This document shows, one piece after another, positions 7,637 through 25,469 of a stretch of 64,000 nucleotides of DNA; positions within the stretch are counted from its first letter, which is position 1, and each line of letters opens with the position of its first letter. The position numbers and the translations under genes were made by a program. Below the pieces are notes generated by a model. The model was given only the letters and a program-made list of their open reading frames with translations. It was not told the origin of the DNA and made no database searches. The DNA comes from an uncultured Candidatus Saccharibacteria bacterium (GTDB lineage: Bacteria > Patescibacteriota > Saccharimonadia > Saccharimonadales > JAGQNJ01). The DNA is taken from positions 197,053 to 261,052 of the forward strand of contig CAZPAW010000001.1 of NCBI GenBank assembly GCA_964584895.1, written 5' to 3'.

Positions 7637-7656
7637 AATCAGTATTATACAAAAAT

Positions 7657-7697: not shown

Positions 7698-7838
7698 AGT
7701 GAGGTGTGGTTCTGGAATGTGCGATAGATATTGATAACAAATGAGCTTGTGATATTGGCACAAAATTGCGATTAATTGTTTTACCACGAGCATTTTTATA
7801 GTATACTTCGGTTAATAATGTATATAAGGGGTAATATA

Positions 7839-9208
7839 ATGCTGAAAAAACTTAAACTACTGGTAATTGCTTCTATTTTGGCGGTGCCGCTAATTATATC
7901 CCCAATGCAAGCTTCTGCTGCTACAACTGTCGCAATCACATCGCCGACTACTGGTGAGGAAATAACGGGAACGAGTTTTACGGTAACTGGCACGGCAACC
8001 GCTGACAGGCTGATCACGGTATCGGTCAACGGTGACGAAGTTGGGACGACAACCTCTGACGGCTCAGGTGATTGGAGCTTAGAAGTAACCGACCAAGACG
8101 CTGGTGCAAAGACAATTACGGCTGTTGCTAGTGCCCACTACGCATACGTCACCAATGGTGGAGATGCAACTATCTCTGTTTTTGACATAAATACTGACCA
8201 GAAAGTCGGCAGCAACATCAGTAGTGGCGTCAATCAATCGAATCTTGTTGTACGCCCTGATGGCACGCAGATGGTTTCAGCCGGTGGTTTTGGTAGTACC
8301 GCACTTAGGGTTTGGGATTTGTCAGACCCCGCGGTCCCAGTCATATTCGATAGCATAGTCGCCCCTTTGGCGCACAACATGGGGTTAGCATACACGCCTG
8401 ATGGCACCGAGTTCTGGGCTGTTTCGACAAATTTTGGGGACTCACTACCATTCGCTCTTACGATGCAGACAACCCAGCGACGACAGCAGACATAACTGGC
8501 TATTCAGGTGCGGCGGGAATTGTTATTGCTTTCAATGAAGCAGGCGATAAAGCATACGTTTCGGACTGTGGCGATAGCAAGGTTCACGTCATTGATGTAG
8601 CTACAAAAGCCGAAACTAGTACTATAAATGGTGTTGGTTGTGGCGGCCTAGTAGTTGGGCCAAACGATGTGGCATTCTTGCTCGATAGTACTAACGATAG
8701 GCTTAAGCCAATAAACTTAGCTGCAGAAACAGCAGGCGCCTATATTGCGGTTGGTGATGCTCCGGGCCCAATATTTTTTAATTCTGATGGCAGCCGAGCA
8801 TATGTATCTAATACAAATAGTAACAATATTAGTGTAATTAACACCAACACAGATACGGTTGTAGATACAATTGCATTAACTGGCGGACCGTTGTCGGGTG
8901 TCTTTAACCCAGAATTTTCCAAGGTTTATATTGCAAGAAGTACTGCCGACCAAATAGTTGTTGCGGATGGAGATACGTTAGCTGAATTGTCTACTATTGC
9001 TGCAGGGGATTCCCCGACCGGTGTAAGACTAGGACCTGTCGAGTCTGCGACAGCGTCAGTTGATTTTACGCTTGCAACAGCTACTGGCACGTCATCAGAC
9101 GAGATCTTGGCTGATACTGGACAGAATACCTACATATTCTTGGCTCTTGCAAGCATGCTGTTAATTAGTCCAGCCGTTTACTTGAGAAAACGATACTCGC
9201 AAAAATAA
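7839..9208 (+). pseudogene. sortase-substrate surface protein with YVTN beta-propeller repeats, interrupted by a frameshift near 8440-8460 (frame 3 to frame 2)
   Basis: Signal peptide starts at 7839 (AAGGGG RBS). YVTN repeats continue across the break: frame 2 is open from 8402 and reads '...KAYVSDCGDSKVHVIDVATK...'. A TTTTGGGGA homopolymer sits at the switch. C-terminus is 'LADTG' + TM + 'RKRYSQK'. Confidence 0.55.
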
Positions 9209-9289
9209 TTATCTACAGTTGTTGGTTTAGCAACGTAGATTGCCAGTTAGTAGCCGGCAAGAATAAATCAGGTTTTTAGGGCATATTAA

Positions 9290-10330
9290 ATGAAAAAATA
9301 CATACATATTGCCATCCTCTTATTGTTAGTTGGAGTTAGTTTCTTTGTCATAGGGATAAATAATGCAGATAACCCAAACACAGTAACTGATACGACGACA
9401 AATACGCCGGTTCAAAGTGATGATGAAGTCCCGTCAACTCGAAAAAAAGATAAAGACGATACGTCACAATCGGTATCTAGTGATAATCTGTTTTATGATT
9501 TGGCCTCTCAAACCACTGATGTAAACATAGATAAAACTTTAATCACGTCAAGCAATTCTGATAGTGATTCGGATGATGGTGAAACTGAGGAGATTTCACC
9601 GTTGGCTGATGCCGCATTACTTTTGAGAGCATCTAATGTGCCACTGGATTGGACGGCTTCTGACGTGTGGGAAAATGAAGGTACATTAGGTGCGGTAGCC
9701 AATGCAGAAGTTAGAGATAGTATCAATGTCCCTAATAGCCATGTTGTAACACCAGAATACCTTCCCTTATTCGCAAATGGGCCAGGATTCAAAGTCGATA
9801 AACCTGACTATTCACCCCAGTATCATGGATTTGAAATCCCAGATAATGACGCATTAGATATACCTAATGCTGGCGCACTAACATTGATTTTTGACGTTAG
9901 TTTGATTGATCCGGATGATCCAACTAATAAATTAGCTCAAAAATACCCTAATATCGACTTGGGTAGTTCTGAGGAAGGTTGGATATTAGAAAATATAAAC
10001 TTGGGTGAATACGAAGGTTCAATATCACTCGTAAATGCAACAAAAGATGAAAATGGGTTTGTTGGTATTTTTACAGAACGTAGAACCACAACAGATAGAT
10101 TCACAGTAGCGATTAGATGGGATAGAGATACTGACACGCTACGGATGTTTATTAATGGGGTAGAGGATTATGTTCAGGCCAACCCCACGTTAACTACGCT
10201 TGGCGATATTAATACCGAGGCTGATTTAGTGCTGTGCGGTGGCAATGTCTTTCATAACGTGGCAATATTTGACAGAGCATTATCTGATAGTGAAATCGCA
10301 GATATAGACCAAATTTTTCGGCAAAATTAA
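9290..10330 (+). CDS. secreted/membrane-anchored protein with C-terminal LamG-like (Laminin_G_3 / concanavalin A-like) domain
   Basis: N-terminal TM. The C-terminal 'LVLCGGNVFHNVAIFDRALSDSEIADI' is the characteristic end of Laminin_G_3 domains. Confidence 0.6.
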   Translation: MKKYIHIAILLLLVGVSFFVIGINNADNPNTVTDTTTNTPVQSDDEVPSTRKKDKDDTSQSVSSDNLFYDLASQTTDVNIDKTLITSSNSDSDSDDGETEEISPLADAALLLRASNVPLDWTASDVWENEGTLGAVANAEVRDSINVPNSHVVTPEYLPLFANGPGFKVDKPDYSPQYHGFEIPDNDALDIPNAGALTLIFDVSLIDPDDPTNKLAQKYPNIDLGSSEEGWILENINLGEYEGSISLVNATKDENGFVGIFTERRTTTDRFTVAIRWDRDTDTLRMFINGVEDYVQANPTLTTLGDINTEADLVLCGGNVFHNVAIFDRALSDSEIADIDQIFRQN

Positions 10331-10427
10331 TTATCTAAATGACATAGATTAGTCATGCTGTACCTACTATTGTCATAAGCATAATTAGTGTATAATGACT
10401 CCGAATGAGGAAGAAGGAAAGAGAAAA

Positions 10428-11471
10428 ATGAAAAAATATTTATTTGGTTGGTTTAGCTTATTATTGATTGGTTTTAGTATTCTAATGCCAACAATAGCTA
10501 GCGCCGCGTCCGCAGTTGAAACCATTAGTCCAACAGCGTGGCAGCCGGCTAGCGGAGGCTTTCTTACTTTTGCTCAGGCCGGTACGTCACTTCCAAATGT
10601 CACCATAGCTTCTCGAGACACTCCGGGTACTATTATTAATCCAGGACTTGATAGTCCTGAGCCAGCTGGTGGATCGGGCAATGAATTATCAATGATAACT
10701 ATTCCGTCCGTTCTTACCACCTGTTCAAGCGATACGCCGGTTGATGTAACTTTTAGTAGCTACACACGCGAATTACAAAATGCTCAACCTGGAAACGATG
10801 AATACACAATCGTGAGTGGATTAATAGATTTGAGTGGGCCGACAATCGTTATTGATAGTTATAATCAGGATTCACTTGATACTGACGGAATGTACAGCGC
10901 ATCAGGCAGTGGACAGACTATCAGTACCACAGTCGGTAATCTTGACAACATTGTATCTTTTGTAAACTTTGAGGCTGCTACATTCTCAGGTGGAAGCCAC
11001 TATCAGGGTACTGCAGTATTAGGTTTACCAACGATTACACTTAGCTACGATAACGCTACTTGCCCATTGCCACCAACTGTTACCAGTGCTAGTGTCGCAA
11101 GGACAATAGTATCCCAGGATACTGCTTCTGGGGATGTTGTTGTTTCAGGTTCTAGCTATGGTGCTTCTGACGCCAACGAGGATACACTAACCTATAGCAT
11201 AAGTGATGGCAATGACGAAGGTTATTTCGCAATCAATTCTGATAGTGGAGATATTTCTACCACTAGAGCAAATATCCCTGTAGGAACGTACACAATGACT
11301 GTTTTGATCGATGATGGTAATGGTGGTACAGTTGAAGTGACGGTTACGATTACCGTCACAGAATCTGGCGAAGCGTTGGCCGATACTGGAGATAATACAT
11401 ATGTTTACTTGGCGATGGTTGGTGGGCTGTTGCTGGGATCCGTGGCCGTCGCTAAGAAATACTATTCTTAA
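10428..11471 (+). CDS. cadherin-like domain surface protein with LADTG sortase sorting signal
   Basis: Signal peptide. 'TYSISDGNDEGYFAINSDSGDISTTRANIPVGTYTMTVLIDDGNGG' is a cadherin-like repeat. C-terminal 'LADTGDNTYVYLAMVGGLLLGSVAVAKKYYS'. Start chosen at the Met after a GGAAGAAGGAAAGAG RBS. Confidence 0.7.
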   Translation: MKKYLFGWFSLLLIGFSILMPTIASAASAVETISPTAWQPASGGFLTFAQAGTSLPNVTIASRDTPGTIINPGLDSPEPAGGSGNELSMITIPSVLTTCSSDTPVDVTFSSYTRELQNAQPGNDEYTIVSGLIDLSGPTIVIDSYNQDSLDTDGMYSASGSGQTISTTVGNLDNIVSFVNFEAATFSGGSHYQGTAVLGLPTITLSYDNATCPLPPTVTSASVARTIVSQDTASGDVVVSGSSYGASDANEDTLTYSISDGNDEGYFAINSDSGDISTTRANIPVGTYTMTVLIDDGNGGTVEVTVTITVTESGEALADTGDNTYVYLAMVGGLLLGSVAVAKKYYS

Positions 11472-11594
11472 TAACGAACGTAAATAAAGTCATTTTCAAG
11501 AACTTGCGGAAATAAAATATTGTAAAATTTGTGTTTAAACATAAGTTAGTTATTTTTTTGGTAAACTGATAGAGGTTAATTTGTGTGAAAGTTA

Positions 11595-14537
11595 ATGTCG
11601 ATCAGAAGGAAGTGGTTTGAGTTGGGGCATTTTTTTAAGAAACTTATCTTTATCAATATTGTAGGGCTATTAGCTCTGCCATTACTGATATCAATCTTTT
11701 TGTCACAGCCTGTTCGAGCCGATATTTCATCCGGACTCACTGCCTACTATTCGTTCGACGATATTAGTGGTTCAACAGCTCCGGATAGTTCTGGCAACGG
11801 ATATGATGGAACTATAACTGGTGGTGCAGTAACAGTTAGTGGTGCTGTGGGTGATGCACTGAGTTTTGATGGAGCTGACGATACAGTAGATATTCCGCAT
11901 CAACTTCTTGCAAGCCAGACGCCAGATTTTAGCTACAGTTTTTATTTCAAAGCTGACGTTGGCGGTGACGACAGCCAATATTTGTTAGCCCAATCTAGTA
12001 GCGGAACAAATAATAACGACTGTTTTAGTGTGGCCTACGATAACGTGGCTGGGTCGCTTAAAGTATTAACAACAAATGCAGCGCAGAACGCTAGAATCAC
12101 GAGCGATATTGACGCAACCGGCTGGACCCATATTGCGGTAACGCATTCGTATTCTACGAACGAGTCTAAATTGTACATAAATGGCGTTGCACAGACTGGC
12201 TATGCTATGTCTTGTTCGCAGGCGTTAGCATCACAGTTTTTATTGGGACGTTCGCCATGGGCTGGCTACAACCAACAACTTCAGGGCTCTTTAGACGAGG
12301 TCAGGATATATAGCCGGATTTTAAGCGATGCTGATATCTACGATTTAGCCACAGCCGGTGATACTAATAGTGTATCAATAACTACACCTACTGAGGGGAC
12401 AGTTGTCCGTGGCTCTACTACACTAGAATCCAGCGTGTCTGGTTCGCCTGCTATTAGCTCGATACAATATTATGCAAACGGAGAGGCAATTGGCGCCCCA
12501 ATTGCAGACGCACCTTATTCTTACAACTGGGACACAACAGCAATTGATCAGGGCGATTATTCTATTACGGCGGTCGGTACAGATAGCAATGGTGATGCAG
12601 TACCGTCTTTAGCGTTAAATGTAGTAGTAGATAATGACCCAGTGATAAACATGAATAATACCAAAAGTATTCAGCAAACTACGGCTGAAATTGTATGGGT
12701 AACGGATGAACAAACCAACGGCCAGATTGAATATGGTTTAACAAGTTCTTATGGCTCACAGAGTGATCTGGTAAGTGACCTAAGTTATTACCACAACCAT
12801 CAATTAACAAATTTATTACCTAATACTACCTATCATTATCAGATTATCTCTCAGGACAATTTTGGTAATGAGGTTACGTCTGGTGATCTGACTTTTTCAA
12901 CCATAACGGATGTAGCCGGTAATCAATGGCATGTCACAACTGATGGGACGTCTGGAGGTGATGGTTCCATTGAAAACCCGTGGGATTTGGCTACTGCCTT
13001 GGCTCAGCCTCTCAGCGTTCAACCGGGCGATACAATTTGGGTTCATGCTGGTACGTATGCCGGTGTTTTTACTAGTACATTAACCGGGACAGCGAGTTCA
13101 CCTATTGTTCTGAGAAACTATAATAACGAGCGAGTAATTATAGATGGAGAGAGCTCTAATAGTAGCGTCATCACGGTATACGGTGCTTATACCTGGTATT
13201 GGGGACTAGAGGTAATCAACTCTGATATGACTCGAACAATAGAGCAGGCGGGTTCTAATCCGATCACGTTACCTCGTGGTCTTGGTTACTACGTTTTAGG
13301 CCCAGGCACTAGATTCATAAATAATGTTGTTCATGATACCGCGGAAGGTTTTGGGTTTTGGACGCCGGCCACAAACTCAGAATTATATGGAAATATCGTG
13401 TACTACAACGGCTGGGAAGGCCCAGATAGGGGGCATGGCCATGGGCTTTATGTACAAAATAATACTGGGCTTAAAAATCTAACAAATAATATTGTATTTA
13501 AAAATTTCGGCTACGGACTGCACGCTTATACAGAGGGCGGGACGCTACACAATATTCTAACTGATAGCAATGTATTTTTTAGTAATGGCGCGCTATCCAA
13601 CACTGGTTACACACAAAATATGCTTCATGGTGGGTATACGGTAGCTAATAATCCGATGATTTTTAACAATAGGGTCTACTCACCTATCGCGTTGGGTGGT
13701 GGTCTAGGTATCGGCTATGCTGCCGGTTGCAACACGCCGACAATAGAAGGTAATTATATTGTCTCGCATTCAGCATTTGATCTTAGTTCAGACTGTAGCC
13801 ATAACATGGTTTCTGGCAATACTTTTTATGGTTCGTATCCTGGCTCGGCCCCAACAAACTACCCAGATAACGAGTATTTTAATGTTACAGTCCCCACAGT
13901 TAATAATGTATATGTGGCACAGAATTATTATGAACCCACAAAATCTTACGTAACAATATATAACTGGGAGGATTTGTCGAGTGTTGATGTGGATGCATCA
14001 AGTGTATTAGAAGCAAATGATACTTATGCGGTTTATGACACACAGGATTATTTTGGTGAATCAATAACTACTGGTACTTTTTCTGGTACGACACTAGCTG
14101 TGCCAATGACAACTACCGGGCTAACAGATACGGTGGGTGTAGTGCCTGTTGCCCCGACACATACTAGTGAAGAATTCGGTTCGTTTATTTTAGTTAAGAC
14201 TGGGCATACCGATCCAGTGCCAGATGAAGAGATTGAAACACCTGTCGATAATAATTCGTCAAATGATTCAGTATCTTCTGAGGCTGATGAATCTGTACAA
14301 ACATCGTTAGCTAGCATTTTATTTACTAGCTCTAATTTGGGTTCGCAAAAACCTGAAAAAAGCGAAGACGTATCCAACCAAGACGGATCTCCTTTACTAG
14401 AAAATGACCAAGACAAGAACAATTCAAATACTAGCTCAGAAAAAAACAAAGGATTTGGTGATTTACAAAAAGTTTTGGGCTTTGCTTTTGTGTTGGTAAT
14501 AATCACAGGTTTATTATGGAGAGTATTTATACATTAA
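11595..14537 (+). CDS. 980-aa surface protein: LamG-like, Ig-like, Fn3/purple-acid-phosphatase-N-like and right-handed beta-helix domains, then a C-terminal TM anchor
   Basis: 'LDEVRIYSRILSDADIYDL' (Laminin_G_3). 'TAEIVWVTDEQTNGQIEYGLTSSYG...TTYHYQI' (Fn3-like). Repeated 'N.I..N.G.G' beta-helix turns. Acidic Ser-rich linker and hydrophobic C-terminus. Confidence 0.7.
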   Translation: MSIRRKWFELGHFFKKLIFINIVGLLALPLLISIFLSQPVRADISSGLTAYYSFDDISGSTAPDSSGNGYDGTITGGAVTVSGAVGDALSFDGADDTVDIPHQLLASQTPDFSYSFYFKADVGGDDSQYLLAQSSSGTNNNDCFSVAYDNVAGSLKVLTTNAAQNARITSDIDATGWTHIAVTHSYSTNESKLYINGVAQTGYAMSCSQALASQFLLGRSPWAGYNQQLQGSLDEVRIYSRILSDADIYDLATAGDTNSVSITTPTEGTVVRGSTTLESSVSGSPAISSIQYYANGEAIGAPIADAPYSYNWDTTAIDQGDYSITAVGTDSNGDAVPSLALNVVVDNDPVINMNNTKSIQQTTAEIVWVTDEQTNGQIEYGLTSSYGSQSDLVSDLSYYHNHQLTNLLPNTTYHYQIISQDNFGNEVTSGDLTFSTITDVAGNQWHVTTDGTSGGDGSIENPWDLATALAQPLSVQPGDTIWVHAGTYAGVFTSTLTGTASSPIVLRNYNNERVIIDGESSNSSVITVYGAYTWYWGLEVINSDMTRTIEQAGSNPITLPRGLGYYVLGPGTRFINNVVHDTAEGFGFWTPATNSELYGNIVYYNGWEGPDRGHGHGLYVQNNTGLKNLTNNIVFKNFGYGLHAYTEGGTLHNILTDSNVFFSNGALSNTGYTQNMLHGGYTVANNPMIFNNRVYSPIALGGGLGIGYAAGCNTPTIEGNYIVSHSAFDLSSDCSHNMVSGNTFYGSYPGSAPTNYPDNEYFNVTVPTVNNVYVAQNYYEPTKSYVTIYNWEDLSSVDVDASSVLEANDTYAVYDTQDYFGESITTGTFSGTTLAVPMTTTGLTDTVGVVPVAPTHTSEEFGSFILVKTGHTDPVPDEEIETPVDNNSSNDSVSSEADESVQTSLASILFTSSNLGSQKPEKSEDVSNQDGSPLLENDQDKNNSNTSSEKNKGFGDLQKVLGFAFVLVIITGLLWRVFIH

Positions 14538-14608
14538 TAATCAAAAAAATATGCAAATTTTACTTCTTGAGAATAAGTACTTATGGTAATATTAACCTAA
14601 GGAAAACT

Positions 14609-17203: not shown

Positions 17204-17262
17204 CGTATACTTCACAGCCCCTATTATTATTGCTAGAATATAGATAAGAGAGGACAAAAATA

Positions 17263-17775: not shown

Positions 17776-17834
17776 AAAGCCTTTTCTGGCTACTTTCAAG
17801 TTTTGACGTAAGCGTTTCTATAGTATAATTAAAC

Positions 17835-20800
17835 ATGAATCAGAGGGTTATGATAAAGACATTGTCAAAACATAAAAAATATTTGTTTTTCGGCATAATA
17901 ATGTTGGTTGTTTTTGCCGTGCCAATTACAAGGGTAAATGCTGCTGCAACCATTACTGTAAATTCTACAGCCGATGACCAAAATAATGATGGAGAATGTA
18001 CCCTAAGGGAAGCCATAGTTGCATCAAATACAGACACAGCTTCAGGTGCTGCAGTCGGTGAATGTACTGCTGGTTCTGGCGCCGACACAATAGAATTTGA
18101 TATCTCAGGGACTGGCTTGAAGACGATCCATATATCCTCCGGGATGCCGACTATCACTCGAACTGTTACGATTGATGGCTATACTCAGACTGACGCTGTT
18201 GTTAATAATGCTGACTTCCCTGATGCGATGAATGGTACTTTAACTGTCGAGATTGATGCCGCCGGAGAATCTGGCATATATGGCTTTGATATTAATGGCA
18301 GCCAGGCTGATGGGACTGTGATAAAAGGACTGATCGTTAATGATATCCCGTACGAAACATTCTATTTGACTGACGTTGATAACGTATCTTTGGAGGGCAA
18401 CTATATCGGTACGAGTTCAACCGGTACTGTGGCTGATGGTGGTAGCTCACACGGTGTTCGAATTGGCGGCAGTTCTACCGGCAATATGATTGGTGGTGCC
18501 ACGGCCGCAAAACGAAATGTCATATCAGGCAACGGGAACACAGGTGTATTATTTTATGGATCTGCGCTAACAACGGGTAATTTTGTGCAAGGTAATTTCA
18601 TAGGCGTTGGGGCAGATGGAACAACAAGAATCGGTAATTCTCAGCAAGGCGTAGCCTCGTCAGAGGGTCCAACCGGTAACATCATCGGTGGTGATGGAGT
18701 TGGTGAGGGGAACGTAATTTCTGGTAACGGTGGGATAGGTGTTTACTTGTCGGGTACGGGTGGTGCTAATACAGTGCAAGGTAATCATATTGGGACAAAC
18801 GCCGCAGGTTCGGCCGGTGTCTATAATGGTCAGGGCGGAATTGTTGTGTCAAACGCAGATAGTAATACCATTGGTGGTTCAATAGTTGGTGCGCGTAATG
18901 TTATATCTGGAAATTCCGCCCACGGCATTTCGATTATCGATGATTCTGATAATAACGATATATCTGGGAACTATGTTGGTGTTGGCAGTGATGGATCTAC
19001 CGCAATGCCTAACGGAGTTCACGGATTACTCATTGAAGGCGGTTCTGGAAGCAACACGATTGGCGGGACTTCATCTGGTGAACGTAATATTATATCTGGC
19101 AATAGTGAAGCTGGGGTCTTTATATCGGGTCCGACTGTAAATTCAAATATTGTACAGGGTAATTATATCGGTACAGACGATACTGGTGCTGTAGACGTTG
19201 GTAATGGATCATACGGGCTAGTATTGGACAATTCGCCATCTAATACTGTTGGCGGTACAACAGGAGTAACTGTTGGTGGTGATTGTACGGGTTCTTGTAA
19301 CGTAATATCTGGGAATGGCGATGATGCTATATGGCTATATGGCGATAGCGCAGATAATAATGTAATAAAAGGCAATCACATTGGCACAAACGTAGCTGGA
19401 ACGGGAGACTTAGGTAATGGCGGTAGAGGTGTCAATATCACATTTAGTGCTGATGGAACCTTAGTCGGAGGCACAACCGCAAGCGACGCTAATCTAATCC
19501 GATTTAACGATGTCAGGGGTGTTTCGATACCGAATTCTGGCTCGATCAATAATGCGATTATCGGTAACTCTCTATATCAAAATGCTATATCAAATATTGA
19601 TCTTTCTGAGGATGGTGTGACAGCAAATGATGCTAATGATGCTGACAACGGACCAAATGACCTACTTAACTACCCAGAGTGGGGGCTATTTGATGACGAT
19701 AGTGGCGACACCGAAGTAACATATGATCTAGATGTTCCGGCTGGCGATTACCGGATAGAAACATTTAGTGATAATGGAAAAACTTTAGTTGATTCACAAA
19801 ATATTACGCACACTGGCTCAGGAGCAGAAAGTTTTTCCAACACTATTACGGGCAATAATTATTCAAACCTTCGAATGACTGCAACAGAGATTGATGGTGG
19901 ATTGTCCAGTGGTTTTGGATCAACTAGCGAATATAGCGAAGCATACTCTGATGGTACAGAAATAATTACCGTAAACTCTACAGCTGACGATAGTAATGAT
20001 GATGGCGAATGTACCTTGCGCGAAGCCATAACTGCAGCTAATGATAATACTGAATCTGGGATAAGTGACGGCGAGTGTATTGCTGGTGCTGCGACTGATA
20101 CCATAGAATTTGATATTGCAGGTGCTGGACCGCACACGATTCAGCCAGGCGCAGCCTTGCCATCGATAACAGCAGACGGTACGACCATTAATGGCTATAG
20201 TGAAACAGGAGCAGTAGAGAACTCTGGTGACTATAGTGCATGTTTTGTAGGTACGATCATGATAGAAATCGATGGTCAAAATGCCGGTAGCGTATCTGGG
20301 CTGACAATTTCTGCTGAGAATGTGACAATCAGAGGTCTGGCAATCAACAGATTTACATATAGTGGAGTTTATATAGGGTCAGCGAGTGGTACGGTAGTTG
20401 CAGGGAATATTCTTGGACTTGATGACGCAGGGTTGGTTGACCACGGTAATGGCGATGCTGGTGTTGACATAAGAAGTACTGGGGATACTTTGATTGGTGG
20501 TACGACTGCTGCAGATCGGAACCTAATCTCCGGTAATGAAGGGTTTGGCGGGATAAGTTCTTATGCAGATACAGGCACGATAACAATTAGTGGGAATTGT
20601 ATCGGCACTGACGCAACTGGTGATACTGCAATCCCGAATAACCATAGCGGGATTAATTTATATCAAGCCGAGGCGAATATGGTTATCGGCGGCGACACCA
20701 CTCACGAGCGCAATATTATATCTGGTAACGACGAAAACGGTATCAGCATTTCAGAGAGTAATGTGGGTGATATAAAAGGCAACTATATCGGAGTGGATGC

Positions 20801-22934
20801 GGATGGTGAGGCTGATTTGGGCAATGGCATGAGCGGAATATCGGCTGACGCTACTTCCAGCGTGTCCTATATTGGTGGGCTAACTAGCGGAGAGCGTAAT
20901 ATTATATCTGGTAACGACAGCGATGGTATATATTTGGCCGATGGAACTGGCGATACCAGAATCCGCGGTAACTACATTGGCGTTGATGCTACAGGGGCAG
21001 TAGACCTAGGTAATACAGATGATGGAATAATTGCTGGCTCGACCGACATTATTATCGGTGGAACAGCAAGTGGAGCACGAAACGTTGTATCCGGGAATGG
21101 TGCAGAGGGTATAGAATTATCTTCTACCGCAACAACTGCTTTGGTCCAAGGTAATTATATTGGACTTAGCGCTAGTGGCAGTAGCGGTATCGGGAATACT
21201 AATATTGGTCTTAGCACAATGGGTATCAATACGATAGTTGGCGGTACGGCAAGCGGGGCAGAAAATGTCGTCTCAGATAACGGTGCTGGTGGAATTTCGG
21301 TCGATGGCGACGATACGACAGTAATCGGAAACCTAGTCGGAACAAGCGCAGATGGCTTGAGTGAAATTGGCAATACTAGTGTTGGTATTAAATCTGGTGG
21401 TGACAATGTAATTATTGGCGGAGATTCAGCCACCGAGCGTAATGTAGTAGCCGGCACAATAGTAGGTGGAAATTATGCTGGATCAGGTATCGTTCTGCTC
21501 AGTTTTGGATCAGGCGGAAGTGGTGGGGTTGTTAAGGGTAATTACGTTGGGACAAATATTAACGGTACAGTTGGTGGCGGGTTTGGCAACGGCGGATTCG
21601 GAATATTCGCAATCGGGGACTATTCAAATGGAGTTATCGGCGGTACAGCTAGTGGCGAGGGTAACAAAGTTGTGAGTAGCGGAATGAACGGAATAGGCGC
21701 GAACGGGTTCGCTGGCTTTGGTCTGTACACGAATAATATATCAATCTTAGGTAACCAAGTATATCAAAGTACCTCGACCGGCATTAGATTAATGGCAGAT
21801 ACTAATGGTGATTTTCAACCTGATACTCCGATTCCGTTCCCCAATGATGCGGGCGATGGTGATGTTGGGCCTAATGATTATCTTAACTTCCCAGTTCTTA
21901 ATAGTTCTTCGGCTTCTGCGGGCTCGTTGGATGTTAATTTTGATCTAGATATTCCTAATACTAATACTGGAGTAACCGGCTATAGACTAGAGTTTTTTGC
22001 TAACGACACAGGTGATGCGTCCGGTAATGGCGAGGGGCAGATATATCTTGGTTCGGCAAATGTGTCAGGAGATGTATCAAGCCATTCGGAGACAATAACT
22101 TTAGATCCTGGTGTCATCACCACCGGTGACTACGATATTTCGGCAACTGTCACTGAAATCGATGGTAGTGCTGATGGGTTTGGATCGACTAGCGAGTTTA
22201 GTGCATTCCTAGATAACCAAGAGATTATTCAGCCACTAGATAATGACGATGACGGAGTCAATGATGCTGTTGAAGATGCTGGCCCTAATGGTGGCGATGG
22301 TAATGACGATGGAACGCAGGATAGTGAACAAGCTAGCGTGGCAACAATTCTTGATGCCGAAAGCGACGATTACGTTACACTAGCACTTGATTCGGCTGGC
22401 GTGTGCGATCAGATAGATGATTTTGCATCAAAGCTTGAAAGCGAGCTATCTGAATCTGACCCTGACTTTATCTATCCGCTAACACTAGTAGAATTTACTA
22501 TTCCGTGTGAAGACAGCGTAGATGGAACATTATTCTGGCACGGCGAGGAAGAGTTCACTACTCAAATCTATCGTAAATTTGGCCCGACCACACCTGGCGA
22601 TGTTTCTTCGACAAGTTGGTACACGTCTGAACAATTTATAACGAGCACTGTAGATATTGACGGGAATGCTACAGCAACAGCTTCATTTACGTTGACCGAT
22701 GGTGAAGCAGGTGACGATACAGGCAATGATAATGTAATTGTAGATGCCAATGGTCCAGGCCTAGAAGTAGAAACAACTGACTCTGTAGTAGATAGTATCT
22801 CTAGCGCTGTATCAGACGCACTGTCGGCTACTGGAATGAACCAATACGGCATTTATGCAATAGCCGGCGCGTTAATTATCGGTGGATCGGTGTTTATTGT
22901 AAAACGAAAGTATCAAAGCAGAACTTCAAAGTAA
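17835..22934 (+). CDS. 1699-aa giant surface protein: two CTLREA-type N-terminal modules plus long parallel beta-helix (PbH1/NosD-like) repeat arrays, with C-terminal LSATG sorting signal
   Basis: Signal peptide. 'DGECTLREAIVASN' at residue ~50 and again at ~720. Dozens of 'N.ISGN...G(I/V)' beta-helix repeats. C-terminal 'LSATGMNQYGIYAIAGALIIGGSVFIVKRKYQSR'. Confidence 0.75.
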   Translation: MNQRVMIKTLSKHKKYLFFGIIMLVVFAVPITRVNAAATITVNSTADDQNNDGECTLREAIVASNTDTASGAAVGECTAGSGADTIEFDISGTGLKTIHISSGMPTITRTVTIDGYTQTDAVVNNADFPDAMNGTLTVEIDAAGESGIYGFDINGSQADGTVIKGLIVNDIPYETFYLTDVDNVSLEGNYIGTSSTGTVADGGSSHGVRIGGSSTGNMIGGATAAKRNVISGNGNTGVLFYGSALTTGNFVQGNFIGVGADGTTRIGNSQQGVASSEGPTGNIIGGDGVGEGNVISGNGGIGVYLSGTGGANTVQGNHIGTNAAGSAGVYNGQGGIVVSNADSNTIGGSIVGARNVISGNSAHGISIIDDSDNNDISGNYVGVGSDGSTAMPNGVHGLLIEGGSGSNTIGGTSSGERNIISGNSEAGVFISGPTVNSNIVQGNYIGTDDTGAVDVGNGSYGLVLDNSPSNTVGGTTGVTVGGDCTGSCNVISGNGDDAIWLYGDSADNNVIKGNHIGTNVAGTGDLGNGGRGVNITFSADGTLVGGTTASDANLIRFNDVRGVSIPNSGSINNAIIGNSLYQNAISNIDLSEDGVTANDANDADNGPNDLLNYPEWGLFDDDSGDTEVTYDLDVPAGDYRIETFSDNGKTLVDSQNITHTGSGAESFSNTITGNNYSNLRMTATEIDGGLSSGFGSTSEYSEAYSDGTEIITVNSTADDSNDDGECTLREAITAANDNTESGISDGECIAGAATDTIEFDIAGAGPHTIQPGAALPSITADGTTINGYSETGAVENSGDYSACFVGTIMIEIDGQNAGSVSGLTISAENVTIRGLAINRFTYSGVYIGSASGTVVAGNILGLDDAGLVDHGNGDAGVDIRSTGDTLIGGTTAADRNLISGNEGFGGISSYADTGTITISGNCIGTDATGDTAIPNNHSGINLYQAEANMVIGGDTTHERNIISGNDENGISISESNVGDIKGNYIGVDADGEADLGNGMSGISADATSSVSYIGGLTSGERNIISGNDSDGIYLADGTGDTRIRGNYIGVDATGAVDLGNTDDGIIAGSTDIIIGGTASGARNVVSGNGAEGIELSSTATTALVQGNYIGLSASGSSGIGNTNIGLSTMGINTIVGGTASGAENVVSDNGAGGISVDGDDTTVIGNLVGTSADGLSEIGNTSVGIKSGGDNVIIGGDSATERNVVAGTIVGGNYAGSGIVLLSFGSGGSGGVVKGNYVGTNINGTVGGGFGNGGFGIFAIGDYSNGVIGGTASGEGNKVVSSGMNGIGANGFAGFGLYTNNISILGNQVYQSTSTGIRLMADTNGDFQPDTPIPFPNDAGDGDVGPNDYLNFPVLNSSSASAGSLDVNFDLDIPNTNTGVTGYRLEFFANDTGDASGNGEGQIYLGSANVSGDVSSHSETITLDPGVITTGDYDISATVTEIDGSADGFGSTSEFSAFLDNQEIIQPLDNDDDGVNDAVEDAGPNGGDGNDDGTQDSEQASVATILDAESDDYVTLALDSAGVCDQIDDFASKLESELSESDPDFIYPLTLVEFTIPCEDSVDGTLFWHGEEEFTTQIYRKFGPTTPGDVSSTSWYTSEQFITSTVDIDGNATATASFTLTDGEAGDDTGNDNVIVDANGPGLEVETTDSVVDSISSAVSDALSATGMNQYGIYAIAGALIIGGSVFIVKRKYQSRTSK

Positions 22935-23009
22935 GCGGTATTAGTAGTTGTAATATTAGTTAAACTGACAGATAATATACATAAGCATTTTATAAGGGGA
23001 GTTAGAATT

Positions 23010-25469
23010 GTGGGAGTAGGTTTATCCCAGATTGTAGATAATCAAAATAATAAATTATTTGCGATATCGTTATTACTCGGCGTCAGTATAATCTCGGTGT
23101 TAATCTTTAGCGGACAAGTAGTTAGGGCTGCTGCAGATACTTGTACCTGGACGGGCTCTGGAGCAGATACGAATATTAGTACAGCTGGAAATTGGAGTGG
23201 GTGCGATAATGGCAATGTCCCTCAGGACGGGGACACACTAGTATTCCCATCTGGCCCCACTAACAAAGCAGTTACGGTTGACTCGGATATGGGATTTAAT
23301 GGTATTACATTTAATGGTAGTGGTTACACTGTTGCATCTGTGGCGTTTGAATCTCTCGGTGTCTATACCAGCCTGACTATTAGTGGCAACAACAACATAT
23401 TTAGTGGATATGTTCGGTTATATCCAACAACCACAGCCACCATAAATCACAGTGGTACTGGGACAAGTTTTTCTCATTATATTGTCATACAACCTTTAGC
23501 TGATAATACGGATGTTGTATTGAACACTGTAACAGACCTAGCTGTTCCAATGATTTCACAGACTGCGGTAGGGGCTGGAAGTTCAGTCGACACAGTCGCA
23601 AAATCAGGTGCTGGGACGCTAGATATCACTGGGACTGCGATTTCAGGTGTTATTACTAGCGGTGGTATTCACATTGAAGAAGGTCGCTGGCAATGTGATT
23701 CAACAAATTGCCTTGGCAATAGTGCAAACGAAATTATCCTAGATGAAGGTGGCGATGAAGACGGTGCTGAACTAAAGATTAATCATGGCGGAACAGTCAG
23801 TAACCCTATTACTTCTGCAGCGGTCACGGGAGAAAACGGCTCTGTAATTATTTCTGCAAGCGCGACACTAAATGGCGATATTACTGTCACTGATAGTTTG
23901 AATATGTTTGTGACTGGCTCTACAAGTGCCAATATTGATTCTGATATAGCGGTCGCTGATGGCAAAAATCTTGTAAGTTATGGCTCGGAAGGTTATGCGA
24001 CAAACGCTTACGATTACGGCGGTATCATATCTGGCGATGGGGGTTTGATTATTGATAATGCCCATGTGACGTTGAGCGGAATGTCTAATACTTATACTGG
24101 TTCGACAGAGCTAAATAACGCCGCATTGCTTACCGTGACAAATAATAATTCACAGGGCGCACAAACATCAGGAACTGTCGTCAATAATGGCACAACACTA
24201 GAATATGACGCAGGGAGTAGCATCGGTTTTGGAGAGCCAATTACTGTTGAGGGTACTGGTGTGGGTGGTAGCTATCCGGGAGCGTTAGTTAAAACTGGTC
24301 AAAACATGCAGATTGAAGGTGGTATTACCTTGACTGATGATACAACGTTCCATAATGCGACAAGCGAGTTATTTGAAATCACCTCTGTAATTACCGGTAA
24401 TTATAACTTAACATTAACTAACGTCGAAGACGATGGTGGATTCAATATGCAACCAGGTGCGGAAAATTACTTTGGTAACCTAATTGCAACCGGTACAGAA
24501 CTCACGATAGCAGGTTCTGGCAATACAGCGATTCCAAATAATCTAACCATCAATGCTGTAGACGGCAAGTCTTCTTATGTACTATTAAACAGCGACAATG
24601 TCATTGCAGATGATTCGGTAATTACGCTTAATAACGATAGTACCGAAATCGCCAAACTGATAAGCAGTGGAGTAGCGGATTCAGTAGGCACAATTATAGG
24701 CGACGGCACCATTTCGATGCTGGATTCTGATTCACGCTTTAACATTGGATACGGCGACACTGACGGCACTTTTGAAGGTGTTGTAGAAGGCTATACTAAT
24801 TCTCAATTTCAGATCACTGATGGTATATGGACCTTTTCTGGTGATAATACGGACGTTGGTAATGGGTTCTCTAGTTACTATGTTAACGGCGGGAAATTTG
24901 TTGCTGATGCTATTAATACAAGTCTTGGATTCTCCCCGTTTAGCATTAGCTCGGGTGTGCTGGGCGGAACCGATGTAATAGGGCAAGTCAGCGTATATGG
25001 TGGTACAATCGCCCCTGGAAACAGCCCAGGTTGCTTAAACCCTGCCGGTGACGTGGCCTTTACAGATGAGCTTTCTATTTTGAATGTCGAGCTTAACGGC
25101 ACTACTGTCTGCAGTGAATATGACAAGCTTGCAGCCAGTGGAATTGTCTACCTTAATGATGCGACGCTAAATGTAGACTTAGGTTTTGTTCCATCAGCCG
25201 GCGACACATTTACAATTGTAGAGGGTTCTTCAATTGTTGGTACATTTTCTGGTCTTGCTGATGACGATACATTTACTGTTGGCAGCAGAACAATGAAGAT
25301 TAACTACAATGCTACTTCGGTTGTTGTAACTGATGTCACAGCAGATTCAGCAAGCTCTTCAACAACAGATTCGTTAGCAAATACAGGTGTTAGCCAACTG
25401 TTCTTTTTTGGTTTAGTAATTGTATTATTTGGTGGGTCAGCTCTGGTACTCAAGAAGAAAAATCTGTAA
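23010..25469 (+). CDS. autotransporter-passenger-like surface protein (PATR repeats, pertactin-like beta-helix) with LANTG sortase signal in place of a beta-barrel
   Basis: GTG start after a GGGGAG RBS. 'CTWTGSGADTNISTAGNWSG...VPQDGDTLVF' (PATR). 'GGTIAPGNSPGCLN' SPG motif. C-terminal 'LANTGVSQLFFFGLVIVLFGGSALVLKKKNL'. Confidence 0.65.
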   Translation: MGVGLSQIVDNQNNKLFAISLLLGVSIISVLIFSGQVVRAAADTCTWTGSGADTNISTAGNWSGCDNGNVPQDGDTLVFPSGPTNKAVTVDSDMGFNGITFNGSGYTVASVAFESLGVYTSLTISGNNNIFSGYVRLYPTTTATINHSGTGTSFSHYIVIQPLADNTDVVLNTVTDLAVPMISQTAVGAGSSVDTVAKSGAGTLDITGTAISGVITSGGIHIEEGRWQCDSTNCLGNSANEIILDEGGDEDGAELKINHGGTVSNPITSAAVTGENGSVIISASATLNGDITVTDSLNMFVTGSTSANIDSDIAVADGKNLVSYGSEGYATNAYDYGGIISGDGGLIIDNAHVTLSGMSNTYTGSTELNNAALLTVTNNNSQGAQTSGTVVNNGTTLEYDAGSSIGFGEPITVEGTGVGGSYPGALVKTGQNMQIEGGITLTDDTTFHNATSELFEITSVITGNYNLTLTNVEDDGGFNMQPGAENYFGNLIATGTELTIAGSGNTAIPNNLTINAVDGKSSYVLLNSDNVIADDSVITLNNDSTEIAKLISSGVADSVGTIIGDGTISMLDSDSRFNIGYGDTDGTFEGVVEGYTNSQFQITDGIWTFSGDNTDVGNGFSSYYVNGGKFVADAINTSLGFSPFSISSGVLGGTDVIGQVSVYGGTIAPGNSPGCLNPAGDVAFTDELSILNVELNGTTVCSEYDKLAASGIVYLNDATLNVDLGFVPSAGDTFTIVEGSSIVGTFSGLADDDTFTVGSRTMKINYNATSVVVTDVTADSASSSTTDSLANTGVSQLFFFGLVIVLFGGSALVLKKKNL

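What the first reader, a model, noticed from the sequence alone, without database searches (positions are those of the whole stretch)
7839..25469. 17.6-kb island of eight consecutive, very large and architecturally distinct surface/adhesin-like proteins
All eight + strand genes from 7839 to 25469 encode secreted or anchored proteins built from different adhesion-type folds: a YVTN beta-propeller, LamG jellyrolls, a cadherin-like domain, Ig/Fn3, parallel beta-helix arrays, collagen triple-helix tracts and autotransporter-passenger PATR repeats. No enzymes are interspersed. Anchoring is mixed. Four end in L[AS]xTG + TM + basic tail, one has a C-terminal TM and one has an N-terminal TM. The only non-giant gene, a 170-aa basic membrane protein at 17263, sits between two giants. 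If the organism is an epibiont, as its gene content suggests, this would be its host-contact surface. Individual proteins are expected to have only remote homologues.
Basis: partly seen in the sequence, partly recalled or inferred. Interest (0 to 1): 0.7.

Follow-up and report, generated by a model that had tools for sequence, protein, structure and literature searches.

The report
Conserved Saccharibacteria surface-protein gene cluster
This 17.6-kb stretch is a real run of eight same-strand genes for exported, wall- or membrane-anchored proteins in a Saccharibacteria bacterium (a group that lives attached to other bacteria), but related genomes carry most of it in the same place, so it is a useful list of candidate attachment genes and not a new kind of system.

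Summary
The cluster is real. Eight + strand genes (7839-25469, spacers 59-123 nt) each start with a hydrophobic export segment. Four end in L[A/S]xTG + TM + basic tail, and a sortase lies at 61048-61713.

Most domain calls hold: YVTN propeller, LamG, cadherin/Ig-like, Ig/Fn3, right-handed beta-helices, short collagen tracts, and an autotransporter-passenger-like beta-helix (AF2 pLDDT 88).

Corrections:
- Only four proteins exceed 800 aa.
- Gene 1 is split by a -1 frameshift in a GGGG run (8436-8439).
- The 170-aa gene belongs to a family of about 5,600 clusters.
- The proteins are not orphans: 19 to about 37 near-full-length Saccharibacteria relatives for g5, g7 and g8.
- It is not a foreign or strain-specific island. 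GC3 matches the flanks, and one relative has 7 of the 8 genes in the same order between the same Dus/HxlR and DivIC/S26 anchor genes. Other relatives lack, move or duplicate members.

Most interesting is g5: a membrane-anchored, collagen-stalked, phage-tail-fibre-like protein with a Peptidase_S74 chaperone domain. Its segments are shuffled between lineages (N-terminus 100%, centre 18-28% identical in one relative).

Best reading: a sortase- and membrane-displayed adhesion/glycan-binding surface set. A host-contact role is plausible but untested. I class it as a new member of a known kind, interest about 0.4.

The parts
7839..9208 (+). g1: signal peptide, Ig-like domain, YVTN beta-propeller and an LADTG sorting signal (9107-9121) followed by a TM segment and a basic tail. 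The gene is interrupted by a -1 frameshift in the GGGG run at 8436-8439, giving ORFs 7839-8495 and 8669-9208. The repaired product is 456 aa.
   Evidence: TIGR02276, 55.9 bits; intact orthologues in L006 and L023.
9290..10330 (+). g2: 346 aa. N-terminal membrane anchor, a Ser/Asp/Thr-rich linker and a weak LamG-like C-terminal domain. It has no C-terminal anchor. It is present in L006 (79% identity) and absent from L023, L024 and L025.
   Evidence: (PF13385, E 1.2e-3, below the cut-off).
10395..11471 (+). g3: signal peptide (probable start 10428), an unassigned N-terminal domain of about 220 aa, a cadherin/Big_9 Ig-like domain, and LADTG + TM + basic tail.
   Evidence: PF00028 29.4 bits vs cut-off 28.8; PF17963 25.8 vs 23.6; N-terminal domain has no Pfam hit.
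11595..14537 (+). g4: 980 aa. N-terminal hydrophobic segment, LamG, Big_7 Ig domain, Fn3-like domain, right-handed beta-helix, an acidic/Ser-rich linker and a C-terminal TM anchor with no sortase motif next to it.
   Evidence: PF13385 E 7e-23; PF17957 E 3e-13; PF16656 E 5e-7; PF13229 E 2e-8; precomputed Pel9A-like_beta_helix hit on this product and its orthologues.
14516..17203 (+). g5: tail-fibre-like trimer candidate. The probable true start is M32 at 14609. In order it has a cytoplasmic N-terminus, one TM segment, two GXY collagen tracts (14942-15013 and 15062-15151), a conserved Cys-containing neck, a repetitive beta-rich central part that is shuffled between lineages, a Peptidase_S74 intramolecular-chaperone domain (about 16757-16912, motif SSDERLK) and a C-terminal coiled coil.
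   Evidence: PF13884 E 2e-8; phrog_5668 tail fiber, E 2e-14, aa 366-836.
17263..17775 (+). g6: 170-aa single-pass membrane protein with a basic cytoplasmic N-terminus and an outside domain of about 100 aa. It belongs to a very large unannotated family and is not specific to this locus.
   Evidence: 5,629 representatives at E<=1e-3; 10 of 31 members also carry LytR_C.
17835..22934 (+). g7: 1699 aa. Signal peptide, then two tandem modules of a CSLREA motif (17952-18115 and 19965-20128) each followed by a right-handed beta-helix of roughly 63-aa repeats. After these come an acidic linker, a weak choice-of-anchor-U-like domain, and LSATG + TM + basic tail.
   Evidence: TIGR04214 E 3e-18, 2 copies; homologues carry PF13229/PF05048 and are named 'CSLREA domain-containing protein'; the two halves are 41% identical.
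23010..25469 (+). g8: 819 aa. Signal peptide, a conserved Cys-containing N-terminal cap (DTCTWTG...NWSGCDNGNVP), a long beta-helix resembling autotransporter passengers and PATR proteins, and LANTG + TM + basic tail.
   Evidence: AF2 pLDDT 88, pTM 0.78; top PDB matches are SepA, Hbp, Ssp, EspC, Hap and pertactin.
61048..61713 (+). Sortase (221 aa; TLYTC catalytic-Cys motif). It is the inferred enzyme that anchors g1, g3, g7 and g8 to the wall. It lies 35 kb downstream and is not part of the cluster.
   Evidence: PF04203 E 5e-22; TIGR01076 47.2 bits vs cut-off 39.35; no sortase class cut-off reached.
26656..28230 (-). Signal peptidase I (524 aa, with an N-terminal extension of about 330 aa). 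It is a conserved right-hand neighbour of the locus, together with DivIC at 26195-26650. It is the inferred processing enzyme and marks the right edge of the conserved chromosomal frame.
   Evidence: TIGR02227 E 1e-28; same DivIC-S26 pair after the locus in L024.

Best explanation
This is a lineage-conserved cell-surface protein locus of a Saccharibacteria (Patescibacteria) bacterium.

How it would work:
- The eight co-directional genes encode proteins exported through Sec.
- g1, g3, g7 and g8 carry an L[A/S]xTG-TM-basic-tail sorting signal. They would be cut after Thr and linked to peptidoglycan by the genome's sortase (61048-61713).
- g4 would be held by a C-terminal TM helix. g2, g5 and g6 would be held by N-terminal TM helices.
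- Displayed outside are lectin-type jelly rolls (LamG), Ig/Fn3/cadherin-like spacers, a beta-propeller and three kinds of beta-helix.
- g5 adds a collagen-stalked trimeric fibre. It would be folded by a C-terminal intramolecular chaperone of the kind described for phage tail fibres, and that chaperone would then be cleaved off.

The most likely job is binding, and possibly cutting, glycans or proteins on the surface of the host bacterium or the surrounding matrix. The shuffled central part of g5, and to a lesser degree g8, would act as the specificity determinant.

Shown here: the gene order, the anchoring signals, the domains and fold, the conservation and mosaicism, and the presence of a sortase.

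Inferred: export, sortase cleavage of LAxTG, trimerisation and self-cleavage of g5, and any adhesion or host role.
For: - Anchors and export segments were read directly and checked with a hydropathy scan.
- A sortase, a signal peptidase I and peptidoglycan genes (a Mur ligase and MurJ) are in the window.
- LAxTG is the prevailing signal across the g8 homologues in alignment A1.
- g8 gives a confident all-beta helix model (pLDDT 88). Its best matches are autotransporter passengers and a PATR protein. It shares an N-terminal cap and a C-terminal module with a PF12951 protein.
- g5 matches a phage tail-fibre PHROG over aa 366-836 (E 2e-14) and the S74 domain. The residues S-D-x-R-L-K are invariant in all 19 family members.
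- The locus sits in the same Dus/HxlR ... DivIC/S26 frame in L023, L024, L025, L006 and L007.
- g5 is mosaic and g8 is mildly mosaic, as expected for surface proteins under diversifying pressure.
- In the cultivated Saccharibacteria species S. epibionticum, Tn-seq found several predicted extracellular proteins with lectin-like, dockerin or Fn3 domains to be essential for epibiotic growth (PMC10633639). Close-range surface adhesins acting after type IV pili have been proposed (PMC11623550).
Against: - There is no functional data for any of these proteins.
- No homology was shown to the S. epibionticum adhesins.
- The sortase reaches no class-specific cut-off, so its motif preference is unknown.
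- The LPXTG-anchor HMM did not fire on any of the four tails.
- g1 is frameshifted in this genome, so it is dispensable or an assembly error.
- g6 is a broadly conserved envelope protein and not an adhesin.
- The beta-helix domains could be enzymes and not binders.
- Relatives with much smaller versions of the locus (L019 and L021 have only g8, with or without the propeller) show that most members are not universally required.
Confidence: 0.55

Rival explanations
1. The locus builds a general envelope coat. The proteins would form a constitutive protective or structural outer layer (S-layer-like or glycocalyx scaffold) of the monoderm cell. They would have no specific role in recognising a host.
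For: - The locus lies among envelope housekeeping genes: DivIC, signal peptidase I, DUF2207, a membrane trypsin-like protease and the broadly conserved g6.
- Its core is conserved in position across relatives.
- Caulobacter S-layer RsaA appears among the weak fold matches of g8 (E about 0.4-3).
Against: - The eight architectures are different from one another, whereas an S-layer usually has one dominant self-assembling subunit.
- Members are gained, lost and shuffled between close relatives, which suits interaction proteins better than a structural lattice.
- The RsaA matches are far weaker than the autotransporter-passenger matches.
Confidence: 0.2
2. The locus is a surface-tethered degradative toolkit. 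The beta-helix proteins (g4, g7 and perhaps g8) would be polysaccharide lyases or hydrolases, with LamG/Ig/Fn3 acting as carbohydrate-binding modules. They would digest host cell-wall glycans or environmental polymers for nutrient acquisition, and adhesion would be secondary.
For: - g4 has PF13229 Beta_helix and a precomputed Pel9A-like (pectate-lyase-type) beta-helix hit, next to LamG and Fn3-like modules. This is the usual layout of carbohydrate-active enzymes.
- g7 orthologues hit NosD/Beta_helix.
- Wang et al. also considered degradative roles for the essential extracellular proteins of S. epibionticum.
Against: - No catalytic family or active-site signature was matched in Pfam, NCBIfam or PDB sequence searches.
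- CSLREA and PATR beta-helix proteins have no demonstrated enzymatic activity that I know of (own knowledge).
- This rival does not account for g1, g3 or g5.
Confidence: 0.15
3. The block is a horizontally acquired genomic island or prophage remnant inserted next to tRNA-Met, and g5 is a leftover phage tail fibre.
For: - tRNA-Met lies 209 nt after g8.
- GC is higher than in the flanks.
- g5 matches phage tail-fibre families.
Against: - GC3 and four-fold-site usage match the flanks. The GC rise is in codon position 2 and comes from amino-acid composition.
- There is no integrase and no other phage gene.
- No att-like repeat of 12 nt or more was found: the longest exact match between the tRNA region and 7000-10000 is 11 nt. 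No long direct repeats were found either.
- The locus occupies the same chromosomal frame in several relatives.
- Viral contigs share only the S74 domain, at 33% identity.
- All 19 g5 family members have the cellular layout of N-terminal TM plus collagen.
Confidence: 0.03

Closest known systems
Sortase-anchored surface proteins of monoderm bacteria, especially the LAxTG substrates of class E 'housekeeping' sortases in Actinobacteria
   Same: - The tail has the same three parts: a pentapeptide, a hydrophobic helix and a basic end.
- There is an N-terminal export signal.
- A sortase gene is in the genome.
- The motif has Ala or Ser at position 2, as in actinobacterial LAxTG substrates (own knowledge of class E sortases). 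LAxTG is conserved across the g8 family.
   Different: - The sortase here reaches no class cut-off: class D 57 bits vs 165, class E 47 bits vs 160.
- The passengers are beta-helices, a propeller and LamG modules, not the IgG-like fold of MSCRAMM adhesins.
- No pilin-type isopeptide domains or pilus-specific sortase were seen.
- The organism is a Patescibacterium.
Essential extracellular adhesin-like proteins of Southlakia epibionticum (SEML1_0890, 0891, 0315; Wang et al. 2023, PMC10633639)
   Same: - Same phylum.
- Predicted extracellular proteins built from lectin-like, Fn3 and glycan-binding modules.
- Proposed to bind or degrade host glycans.
   Different: - Homology was not tested because the sequences were not at hand.
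- The domain sets named in the paper (VCBS, dockerin) were not found here.
- This organism appears to be an environmental lineage, not an oral G1 strain. That is inferred from the sources of the relatives.
Phage tail fibres and endosialidase tailspikes with a C-terminal intramolecular chaperone domain (Peptidase_S74)
   Same: - g5 has the S74 domain with the conserved S-D-x-R-L-K start, followed by a helical coiled coil.
- It matches a tail-fibre PHROG over 470 residues.
- It shows modular shuffling of its central part, as phage receptor-binding proteins do.
   Different: - g5 is a cellular protein with a cytoplasmic N-terminus, a TM helix and a collagen stalk in place of a virion attachment domain.
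- No phage genes are nearby.
- It is only 33% identical to viral S74 domains.
Autotransporter (type Va) passenger domains and PATR (PF12951) beta-helix proteins
   Same: - g8 is predicted to be a long single-chain beta-helix. Its best structural matches are SepA, Hbp, Ssp, EspC, Hap and pertactin and a phage-encoded PATR protein.
- Its N-terminal cap and C-terminal module align with a PF12951 protein.
   Different: - There is no beta-barrel translocator, and this monoderm lineage has no outer membrane. Anchoring is by a sortase signal.
- PF12951 itself is not detected in g8.
- TM-scores are low (0.24-0.27 against the query length).
CSLREA domain-containing right-handed beta-helix proteins (TIGR04214), common in Planctomycetota, Chloroflexota and others
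   Same: - g7 has two CSLREA motifs, each followed by a beta-helix array.
- Thousands of homologues carry PF13229/PF05048, and sources name several of them 'CSLREA domain-containing protein'.
   Different: - The whole module is duplicated in tandem within g7.
- g7 has an LSATG sortase anchor.
- The family has no established function.
Streptococcal collagen-like adhesins Scl1/Scl2
   Same: GXY tracts in a surface protein that probably forms a trimer. There are weak NCBIfam hits (E 5e-6 and 2e-4).
   Different: - Only 8 + 10 triplets.
- The score is far below the cut-off (25.7 bits vs 325).
- The protein is anchored by an N-terminal TM helix, not a C-terminal LPXTG.
- Its globular part is tail-fibre-like.

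Membership tests
Sortase substrates (cell-wall sorting signal proteins): g1, g3, g7, g8 | C-terminal pentapeptide (LPXTG or a variant) followed by a hydrophobic segment and a positively charged tail | tested here: met
   The tails are LADTG (g1, g3), LSATG (g7) and LANTG (g8), each followed by a 19-aa hydrophobic segment and then RKRYSQK / KKYYS / KRKYQSRTSK / KKKNL. The motif is the variant L[A/S]xTG, not LPXTG.
Sortase substrates (cell-wall sorting signal proteins): g1, g3, g7, g8 | N-terminal signal peptide | tested here: met
   An N-terminal hydrophobic segment is present in all four, with AxA-like sites readable in the sequence. No dedicated signal-peptide predictor was available.
Sortase substrates (cell-wall sorting signal proteins): g1, g3, g7, g8 | A sortase encoded in the genome | tested here: met
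   The product of 61048-61713 matches PF04203 (E 5e-22) and TIGR01076 above its cut-off, and has the TLYTC motif.
Sortase substrates (cell-wall sorting signal proteins): g1, g3, g7, g8 | Match to a curated LPXTG-anchor model | tested here: not met
   No LPXTG-anchor family appeared in the NCBIfam scan at E<=0.01. This is expected for a short, divergent LAxTG tail, but it is recorded as not met.
Sortase substrates (cell-wall sorting signal proteins): g1, g3, g7, g8 | Cleavage between Thr and Gly and covalent linkage to peptidoglycan | not testable with these tools
   This needs biochemistry or mass spectrometry.
Class E sortase system (LAxTG-specific) | The sortase scores as class E | tested here: not met
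   NF033747 class_E_sortase scores 47 bits against a cut-off of 160. Class D scores slightly higher (57 vs 165). Neither is reached.
Type Va autotransporter (g8) | C-terminal beta-barrel translocator domain and outer-membrane insertion | tested here: not met
   There is no Autotransporter (PF03797) hit. The AF2 model ends in a sorting signal and a TM helix.
Type Va autotransporter (g8) | Right-handed beta-helical passenger | tested here: met
   The AF2 model has pLDDT 88 and is all-beta with regular short strands. The top Foldseek PDB hits are autotransporter passengers, E 1e-4 to 3e-3, probability 0.7-1.0, but with low TM-scores.
PATR (PF12951) repeat proteins (g8) | Detectable PF12951 repeats | tested here: inconclusive
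   PF12951 is not detected in g8 even at E<=5. However, PF12951 proteins are significant homologues (P0038 at E 1e-20; N-terminal cap and C-terminal module align), and the top BFVD fold hit is a PATR protein (TMt 0.55).
Peptidase_S74 intramolecular-chaperone fibres (g5) | S74 domain at the C-terminus of a fibrous protein, with a conserved Ser-Asp start | tested here: met
   PF13884 scores 34.7 bits against a cut-off of 22, at aa 748-799. S717, D718, R720, L721 and K722 are invariant in 19 sequences. A coiled coil follows the domain.
Peptidase_S74 intramolecular-chaperone fibres (g5) | Trimerisation and autoproteolytic release of the chaperone | not testable with these tools
   The monomer AF2 model is poor (pLDDT 46). 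No multimer prediction was available.
Bacterial collagen-like proteins (Scl type) (g5) | A long uninterrupted GXY region and a family-level match | tested here: not met
   There are only 8 + 10 triplets. PF01391 scores 19 bits against a cut-off of 27.2, and NF038329 scores 25.7 against 325.
CSLREA domain-containing proteins (g7) | CSLREA N-terminal motif followed by right-handed beta-helix repeats | tested here: met
   TIGR04214 scores 65.2 bits against a cut-off of 25, with two copies. Beta_helix in g7 itself is only E 1.7e-3, but it is clear in orthologues and homologues.
YVTN beta-propeller repeat proteins (g1) | TIGR02276 repeats | tested here: met
   55.9 bits against a cut-off of 27.85, two repeats scored in the C-terminal part. 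YncE-like hits are below their cut-offs.
Cadherin-like domain proteins (g3) | Cadherin or Big_9 domain above the curated cut-off | tested here: met
   PF00028 scores 29.4 vs 28.8 and PF17963 scores 25.8 vs 23.6. Both pass only marginally, and there is a single domain.
Horizontally acquired genomic island | Atypical synonymous composition, a mobility gene, flanking repeats, and absence from relatives at the same site | tested here: not met
   GC3 is 0.348 vs 0.311, within the range of the flanking genes. There is no integrase. There is no att-like repeat. The locus is syntenic in relatives. Only the adjacency to a tRNA is met.
Diversity-generating retroelement target | Template/variable repeat pair and a reverse transcriptase nearby | tested here: not met
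   There are no direct repeats of 30 nt or more other than the beta-helix and collagen repeats. No RT was found among the window proteins scanned.

The most novel reading that the evidence does not exclude
g5 would be a cell-anchored counterpart of a phage receptor-binding fibre. It would be a trimeric, collagen-stalked fibre matured by an S74 chaperone and planted in the epibiont's membrane. Its central cassettes would be exchanged between Saccharibacteria lineages by recombination, and they would set which host bacterium the epibiont can attach to. If so, host range in these ultrasmall epibionts would evolve by the same modular tail-fibre swapping that sets host range in phages.
Probability: 0.2. 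Interest if true: 0.7.

Novelty: new member of a known kind. Interest (0 to 1): 0.4.

Why it matters
How Saccharibacteria and other Patescibacteria recognise and hold on to their host bacteria after the first pilus contact is still largely unknown.

This locus gives a concrete, position-conserved set of candidates:
- four sortase-type wall-anchored proteins;
- one tail-anchored lectin/beta-helix protein;
- one tail-fibre-like fibre with swapped cassettes.

The same set can be found in related genomes by its Dus/HxlR and DivIC/S26 anchor genes. That makes comparative tests (cassette type against host) and genetic tests feasible. It does not by itself reveal a new mechanism.

Tried and rejected
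- **Foreign island or prophage: rejected.** Position-specific GC and four-fold-site usage match the flanks. No att repeat with the adjacent tRNA-Met was found. There are no phage genes apart from the tail-fibre-like g5. The locus is syntenic in relatives.
- **Diversity-generating retroelement or repeat-driven hypervariation: rejected.** There are no template/variable repeats.
- **Promoter and terminator scan: uninformative.** Counts are at or below the shuffle expectation.
- **PDB sequence searches with g4, g5, g7 and g8:** nothing useful, best E 8e-4 on a 59-residue stretch.
- **AF2 of the g5 monomer failed** (pLDDT 46), so no fold search was run on it.
- **Exact-sequence look-up of g2** to see whether other assemblies have an intact g1: not on record. 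Whether the frameshift is real therefore stays open.
- **Viral contig scan with the g5 family** found only S74-domain similarity. The apparent 3-kb match spanned separate phage fibre ORFs.
- **The weak NCBIfam hit of the g1 Ig domain to 'CPR pilus PamR'** (23 bits vs a cut-off of 300) was treated as generic Ig similarity.
- **Literature searches** for Saccharibacteria or Patescibacteria sortase substrates, S-layers and collagen/tail-fibre proteins found nothing specific.

Full report
**1. What is in the sequence**

Between 7839 and 25469 every substantial ORF lies on the + strand. The genes are:

| Gene | Coordinates | Size |
|---|---|---|
| g1 | 7839-9208 | about 456 aa if repaired |
| g2 | 9290-10330 | 346 aa |
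| g3 | 10395-11471 | 358 aa (probable start 10428) |
| g4 | 11595-14537 | 980 aa |
| g5 | 14516-17203 | 895 aa |
| g6 | 17263-17775 | 170 aa |
| g7 | 17835-22934 | 1699 aa |
| g8 | 23010-25469 | 819 aa |

- The probable true start of g5 is Met32 at 14609. It has an AAGGA ribosome-binding site, matches the starts called in relatives, and gives a 71-nt spacer.
- Spacers between genes are 59-123 nt.
In this window g1 is split into 7839-8495 and 8669-9208 by a -1 frameshift in the GGGG run at 8436-8439. The alternative frame continues the propeller sequence, and orthologues in L006 and L023 are intact at 454-465 aa.
- Only four of the eight products exceed 800 aa, so 'very large' and 'giant' are overstated.

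**2. Export and anchoring**

- A hydropathy scan finds an N-terminal hydrophobic segment in all eight products.
- C-terminal sorting signals are LADTG (g1, g3), LSATG (g7) and LANTG (g8). Each is followed by a hydrophobic helix and a Lys/Arg tail.
- g4 has a C-terminal TM helix without a motif next to it. g2, g5 and g6 have only N-terminal TM helices.
- A sortase gene lies in the window at 61048-61713 (PF04203 E 5e-22; TIGR01076 above its cut-off; TLYTC motif). It reaches no class-specific cut-off.
- Across the near-full-length g8 homologues in alignment A1 the signal is mostly LAxTG, with occasional LSxTG, LPxTG and LVxTG. L[A/S]xTG is therefore the lineage's normal sorting motif.

**3. Domains**

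- **g1:** an Ig-like domain plus YVTN propeller repeats (TIGR02276, 55.9 bits).
- **g2:** only a weak LamG match (E 1.2e-3).
- **g3:** one cadherin/Big_9 Ig-like domain, just above the cut-offs. Its N-terminal region of about 220 aa has no match.
- **g4:** LamG (E 7e-23), Big_7, an Fn3-like domain, and a right-handed beta-helix (PF13229, E 2e-8 when the C-terminal half is scanned alone; also a precomputed Pel9A-like hit).
- **g5:**
  - two GXY runs of 8 and 10 triplets;
  - a conserved Cys-containing neck;
  - a repetitive beta-rich middle;
  - a Peptidase_S74 intramolecular-chaperone domain (E 2e-8), with S-D-x-R-L-K invariant in 19 sequences;
  - a terminal coiled coil;
  - a match to a phage tail-fibre PHROG over aa 366-836 (E 2e-14).
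- **g7:** two tandem modules (41% identical). Each is a CSLREA motif (TIGR04214, 65 bits) followed by beta-helix repeats of about 63 aa.
- **g8:**
  - no direct Pfam or NCBIfam hit;
  - a 32-sequence alignment gives a confident AF2 model (pLDDT 88, pTM 0.78) that is all beta-helix;
  - the best PDB matches include the autotransporter passengers SepA, Hbp, Ssp, EspC, Hap and pertactin;
  - the best viral-structure match is a PATR protein;
  - its N-terminal cap and C-terminal module align with a PF12951 protein.
- PDB sequence searches found no close solved relatives for g4, g5, g7 or g8.

**4. Organism and homologues**

- The close relatives of g6, g7 and g8 that carry organism labels are Candidatus Saccharibacteria MAGs.
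- Identical DNA from this locus occurs in Logan assemblies of four sequencing runs. A fifth run carries a 96-98% identical strain with an indel of about 290 nt inside g5.
- The proteins are not orphans:
  - g8 has about 37 near-full-length homologues (26-80% identity).
  - g7 has about 20 Saccharibacteria orthologues plus thousands of beta-helix/CSLREA relatives in other phyla.
  - g5 has 19, all with the same layout of TM, collagen and S74.
  - g6 belongs to a family of 5,629 50%-identity clusters, and some members also carry LytR_C. g6 is thus a common envelope protein sitting in the locus and not an island-specific gene.

**5. Is it an island?**

The GC rise sits in codon position 2 (0.465 vs 0.362). 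It reflects Gly/Thr/Ser/Asn enrichment and Lys/Arg/Glu depletion. GC3 (0.348 vs 0.311) and four-fold-site usage match the flanks. There is a tRNA-Met 209 nt after g8, but no integrase, no att-like repeat and no long repeats.

Synteny settles the question:

| Locus | Content |
|---|---|
| L023 (120-kb contig) | ABC2 ... Dus-HxlR-FMN_red-g1-g3-g4-g5-g6-g7-g8 |
| L024 (700-kb contig) | Dus-HxlR-FMN_red-g1-g4-g5-g6-g3-g7, three small ORFs (268, 39 and 183 aa), then DivIC-S26 |
| L025 | g1-g3-(extra 1499-aa CSLREA paralogue)-g4-g5-g6-g7-DUF2207 |
| L006 | g1-g2-g3-g4-g5-g6-DUF2207 |
| L007 | g3-g1-(291 aa)-g6 |
| L019, L021 | between DivIC and Dus, g8 (inverted, next to DivIC), in L021 also a propeller, among unrelated genes |

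The locus is therefore an old, position-conserved feature of this clade with moderate gene flux.

**6. Mosaicism**

g5 is strongly modular:

| Homologue | N-terminus | Centre | C-terminus |
|---|---|---|---|
| P0176 (L023) | 100% | 18-28% | 77% |
| P0170 | 12-53% | 92-96% | not noted |
| P0171, P0173 | not noted | first part 82%, second part 42-44% | not noted |
| P0172 | not noted | first part 39%, second part 67% | not noted |

- At the DNA level the 5' part of g5 is 96.4% identical to L023, while neighbouring genes are 68-87% identical and the centre has no match.
- g8 shows a milder version of the same pattern, for example 99/92/60/71% identity by quarter against P0004.
- No DGR-type repeats exist, so the mechanism is most likely homologous recombination between lineages.
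- Viral contigs share only the S74 domain, at 33% identity. g5 is therefore tail-fibre-like in design but not a recent phage gene.

**7. Interpretation**

The best-supported reading is a Sec-exported, sortase- and membrane-anchored set of binding modules displayed on a monoderm Saccharibacteria cell. The modules are lectin folds, Ig-type spacers, a propeller, beta-helices and a trimeric fibre.

By analogy with S. epibionticum, a role in host or matrix binding is the most likely function. In that species, Tn-seq found several lectin/Fn3/dockerin-type extracellular proteins essential for epibiotic growth (PMC10633639). Close-range adhesins acting after type IV pili have also been proposed (PMC11623550). 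This role remains untested here.

Three rivals were considered:
- A general coat role is possible.
- A degradative-enzyme role for the beta-helix proteins is possible.
- A foreign-island or prophage origin is essentially excluded.

**8. Verdict**

- The locus is a new member of a known kind: a surface-adhesin gene cluster with sortase-type anchoring.
- The most interesting element is g5, a cassette-swapping, tail-fibre-like fibre.
- Interest is about 0.4.

Noticed in passing
window 8436-8439 (within g1, 7839-9208): A -1 frameshift in a GGGG run splits the YVTN-propeller gene, while orthologues are intact. It could be an assembly error, a pseudogene or slipped-strand phase variation. The 5' fragment also has unusually high GC3 (0.466, against 0.30-0.39 for the other locus genes).
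   Followed up: partly
window 17263-17775 (g6): The 170-aa membrane protein belongs to a very large family without any Pfam or NCBIfam model: 5,629 50%-identity representatives at E<=1e-3 and 2,356 at E<=1e-10. Its conserved motif is LP..E.P.VATV.D...L...FF..A.NGDKV.IY..AKKA.IYRPS. Ten of 31 sampled members also carry a LytR_C domain.
   Followed up: partly
window 14516-14608: The longest ORF of g5 overlaps the end of g4 by 22 nt. Relatives and an AAGGA ribosome-binding site point to Met32 (14609) as the real start. Public gene calls use the long form (895 aa).
   Followed up: partly
window 25679-25754, 45658-45732 (-), 47319-47395; ORF 48658-49566: There are three tRNA genes with anticodon CAT in 64 kb. 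The third sits just upstream of a PP-loop ATPase (PF01171, the TilS-type family) and FtsH. One CAT tRNA may therefore be the lysidine-modified tRNA-Ile2.
   Followed up: no
window 26656-28230 (-): The signal peptidase I is unusually long (524 aa). It has its own signal-like N-terminus and an extra domain of about 330 aa before the S26 catalytic domain. A 505-aa (incomplete) counterpart sits at the same position in L024.
   Followed up: no
window 28397-35298: The envelope-related neighbourhood continues past the finding: a 389-aa N-terminally anchored protein with no family, a DUF2207 membrane protein ending in a poly-Gly tail, a 329-aa protein with a Pro/Gln-rich N-terminus and one TM segment, and a 926-aa membrane protein with a trypsin-like domain and a Pro-rich tail.
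   Followed up: no
window 61048-61713: The only sortase seen in the window fits no established class. Class D, E and C models score 42-58 bits against cut-offs of 140-165. It may represent a Patescibacteria-specific sortase type that recognises LAxTG.
   Followed up: partly
window 62597-63904: A 435-aa protein gives a partial match (E 2e-12, about 50 residues) to MATCAP, a eukaryotic microtubule-associated tyrosine carboxypeptidase family. This is odd for a bacterium and was not examined.
   Followed up: no
L019 10001-12406; L021 10001-12478: In two relatives the g8 orthologue lies in the opposite orientation, directly next to DivIC. Most other locus genes are replaced there by unrelated small ORFs or metabolic genes. 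This implies inversion and turnover within the same chromosomal frame.
   Followed up: partly
L002 1049-1281 vs window 16287-16347: A 96-98% identical strain from another sequencing run carries an insertion of about 290 nt inside the g5 fibre region. This suggests that repeat number varies at strain level.
   Followed up: partly
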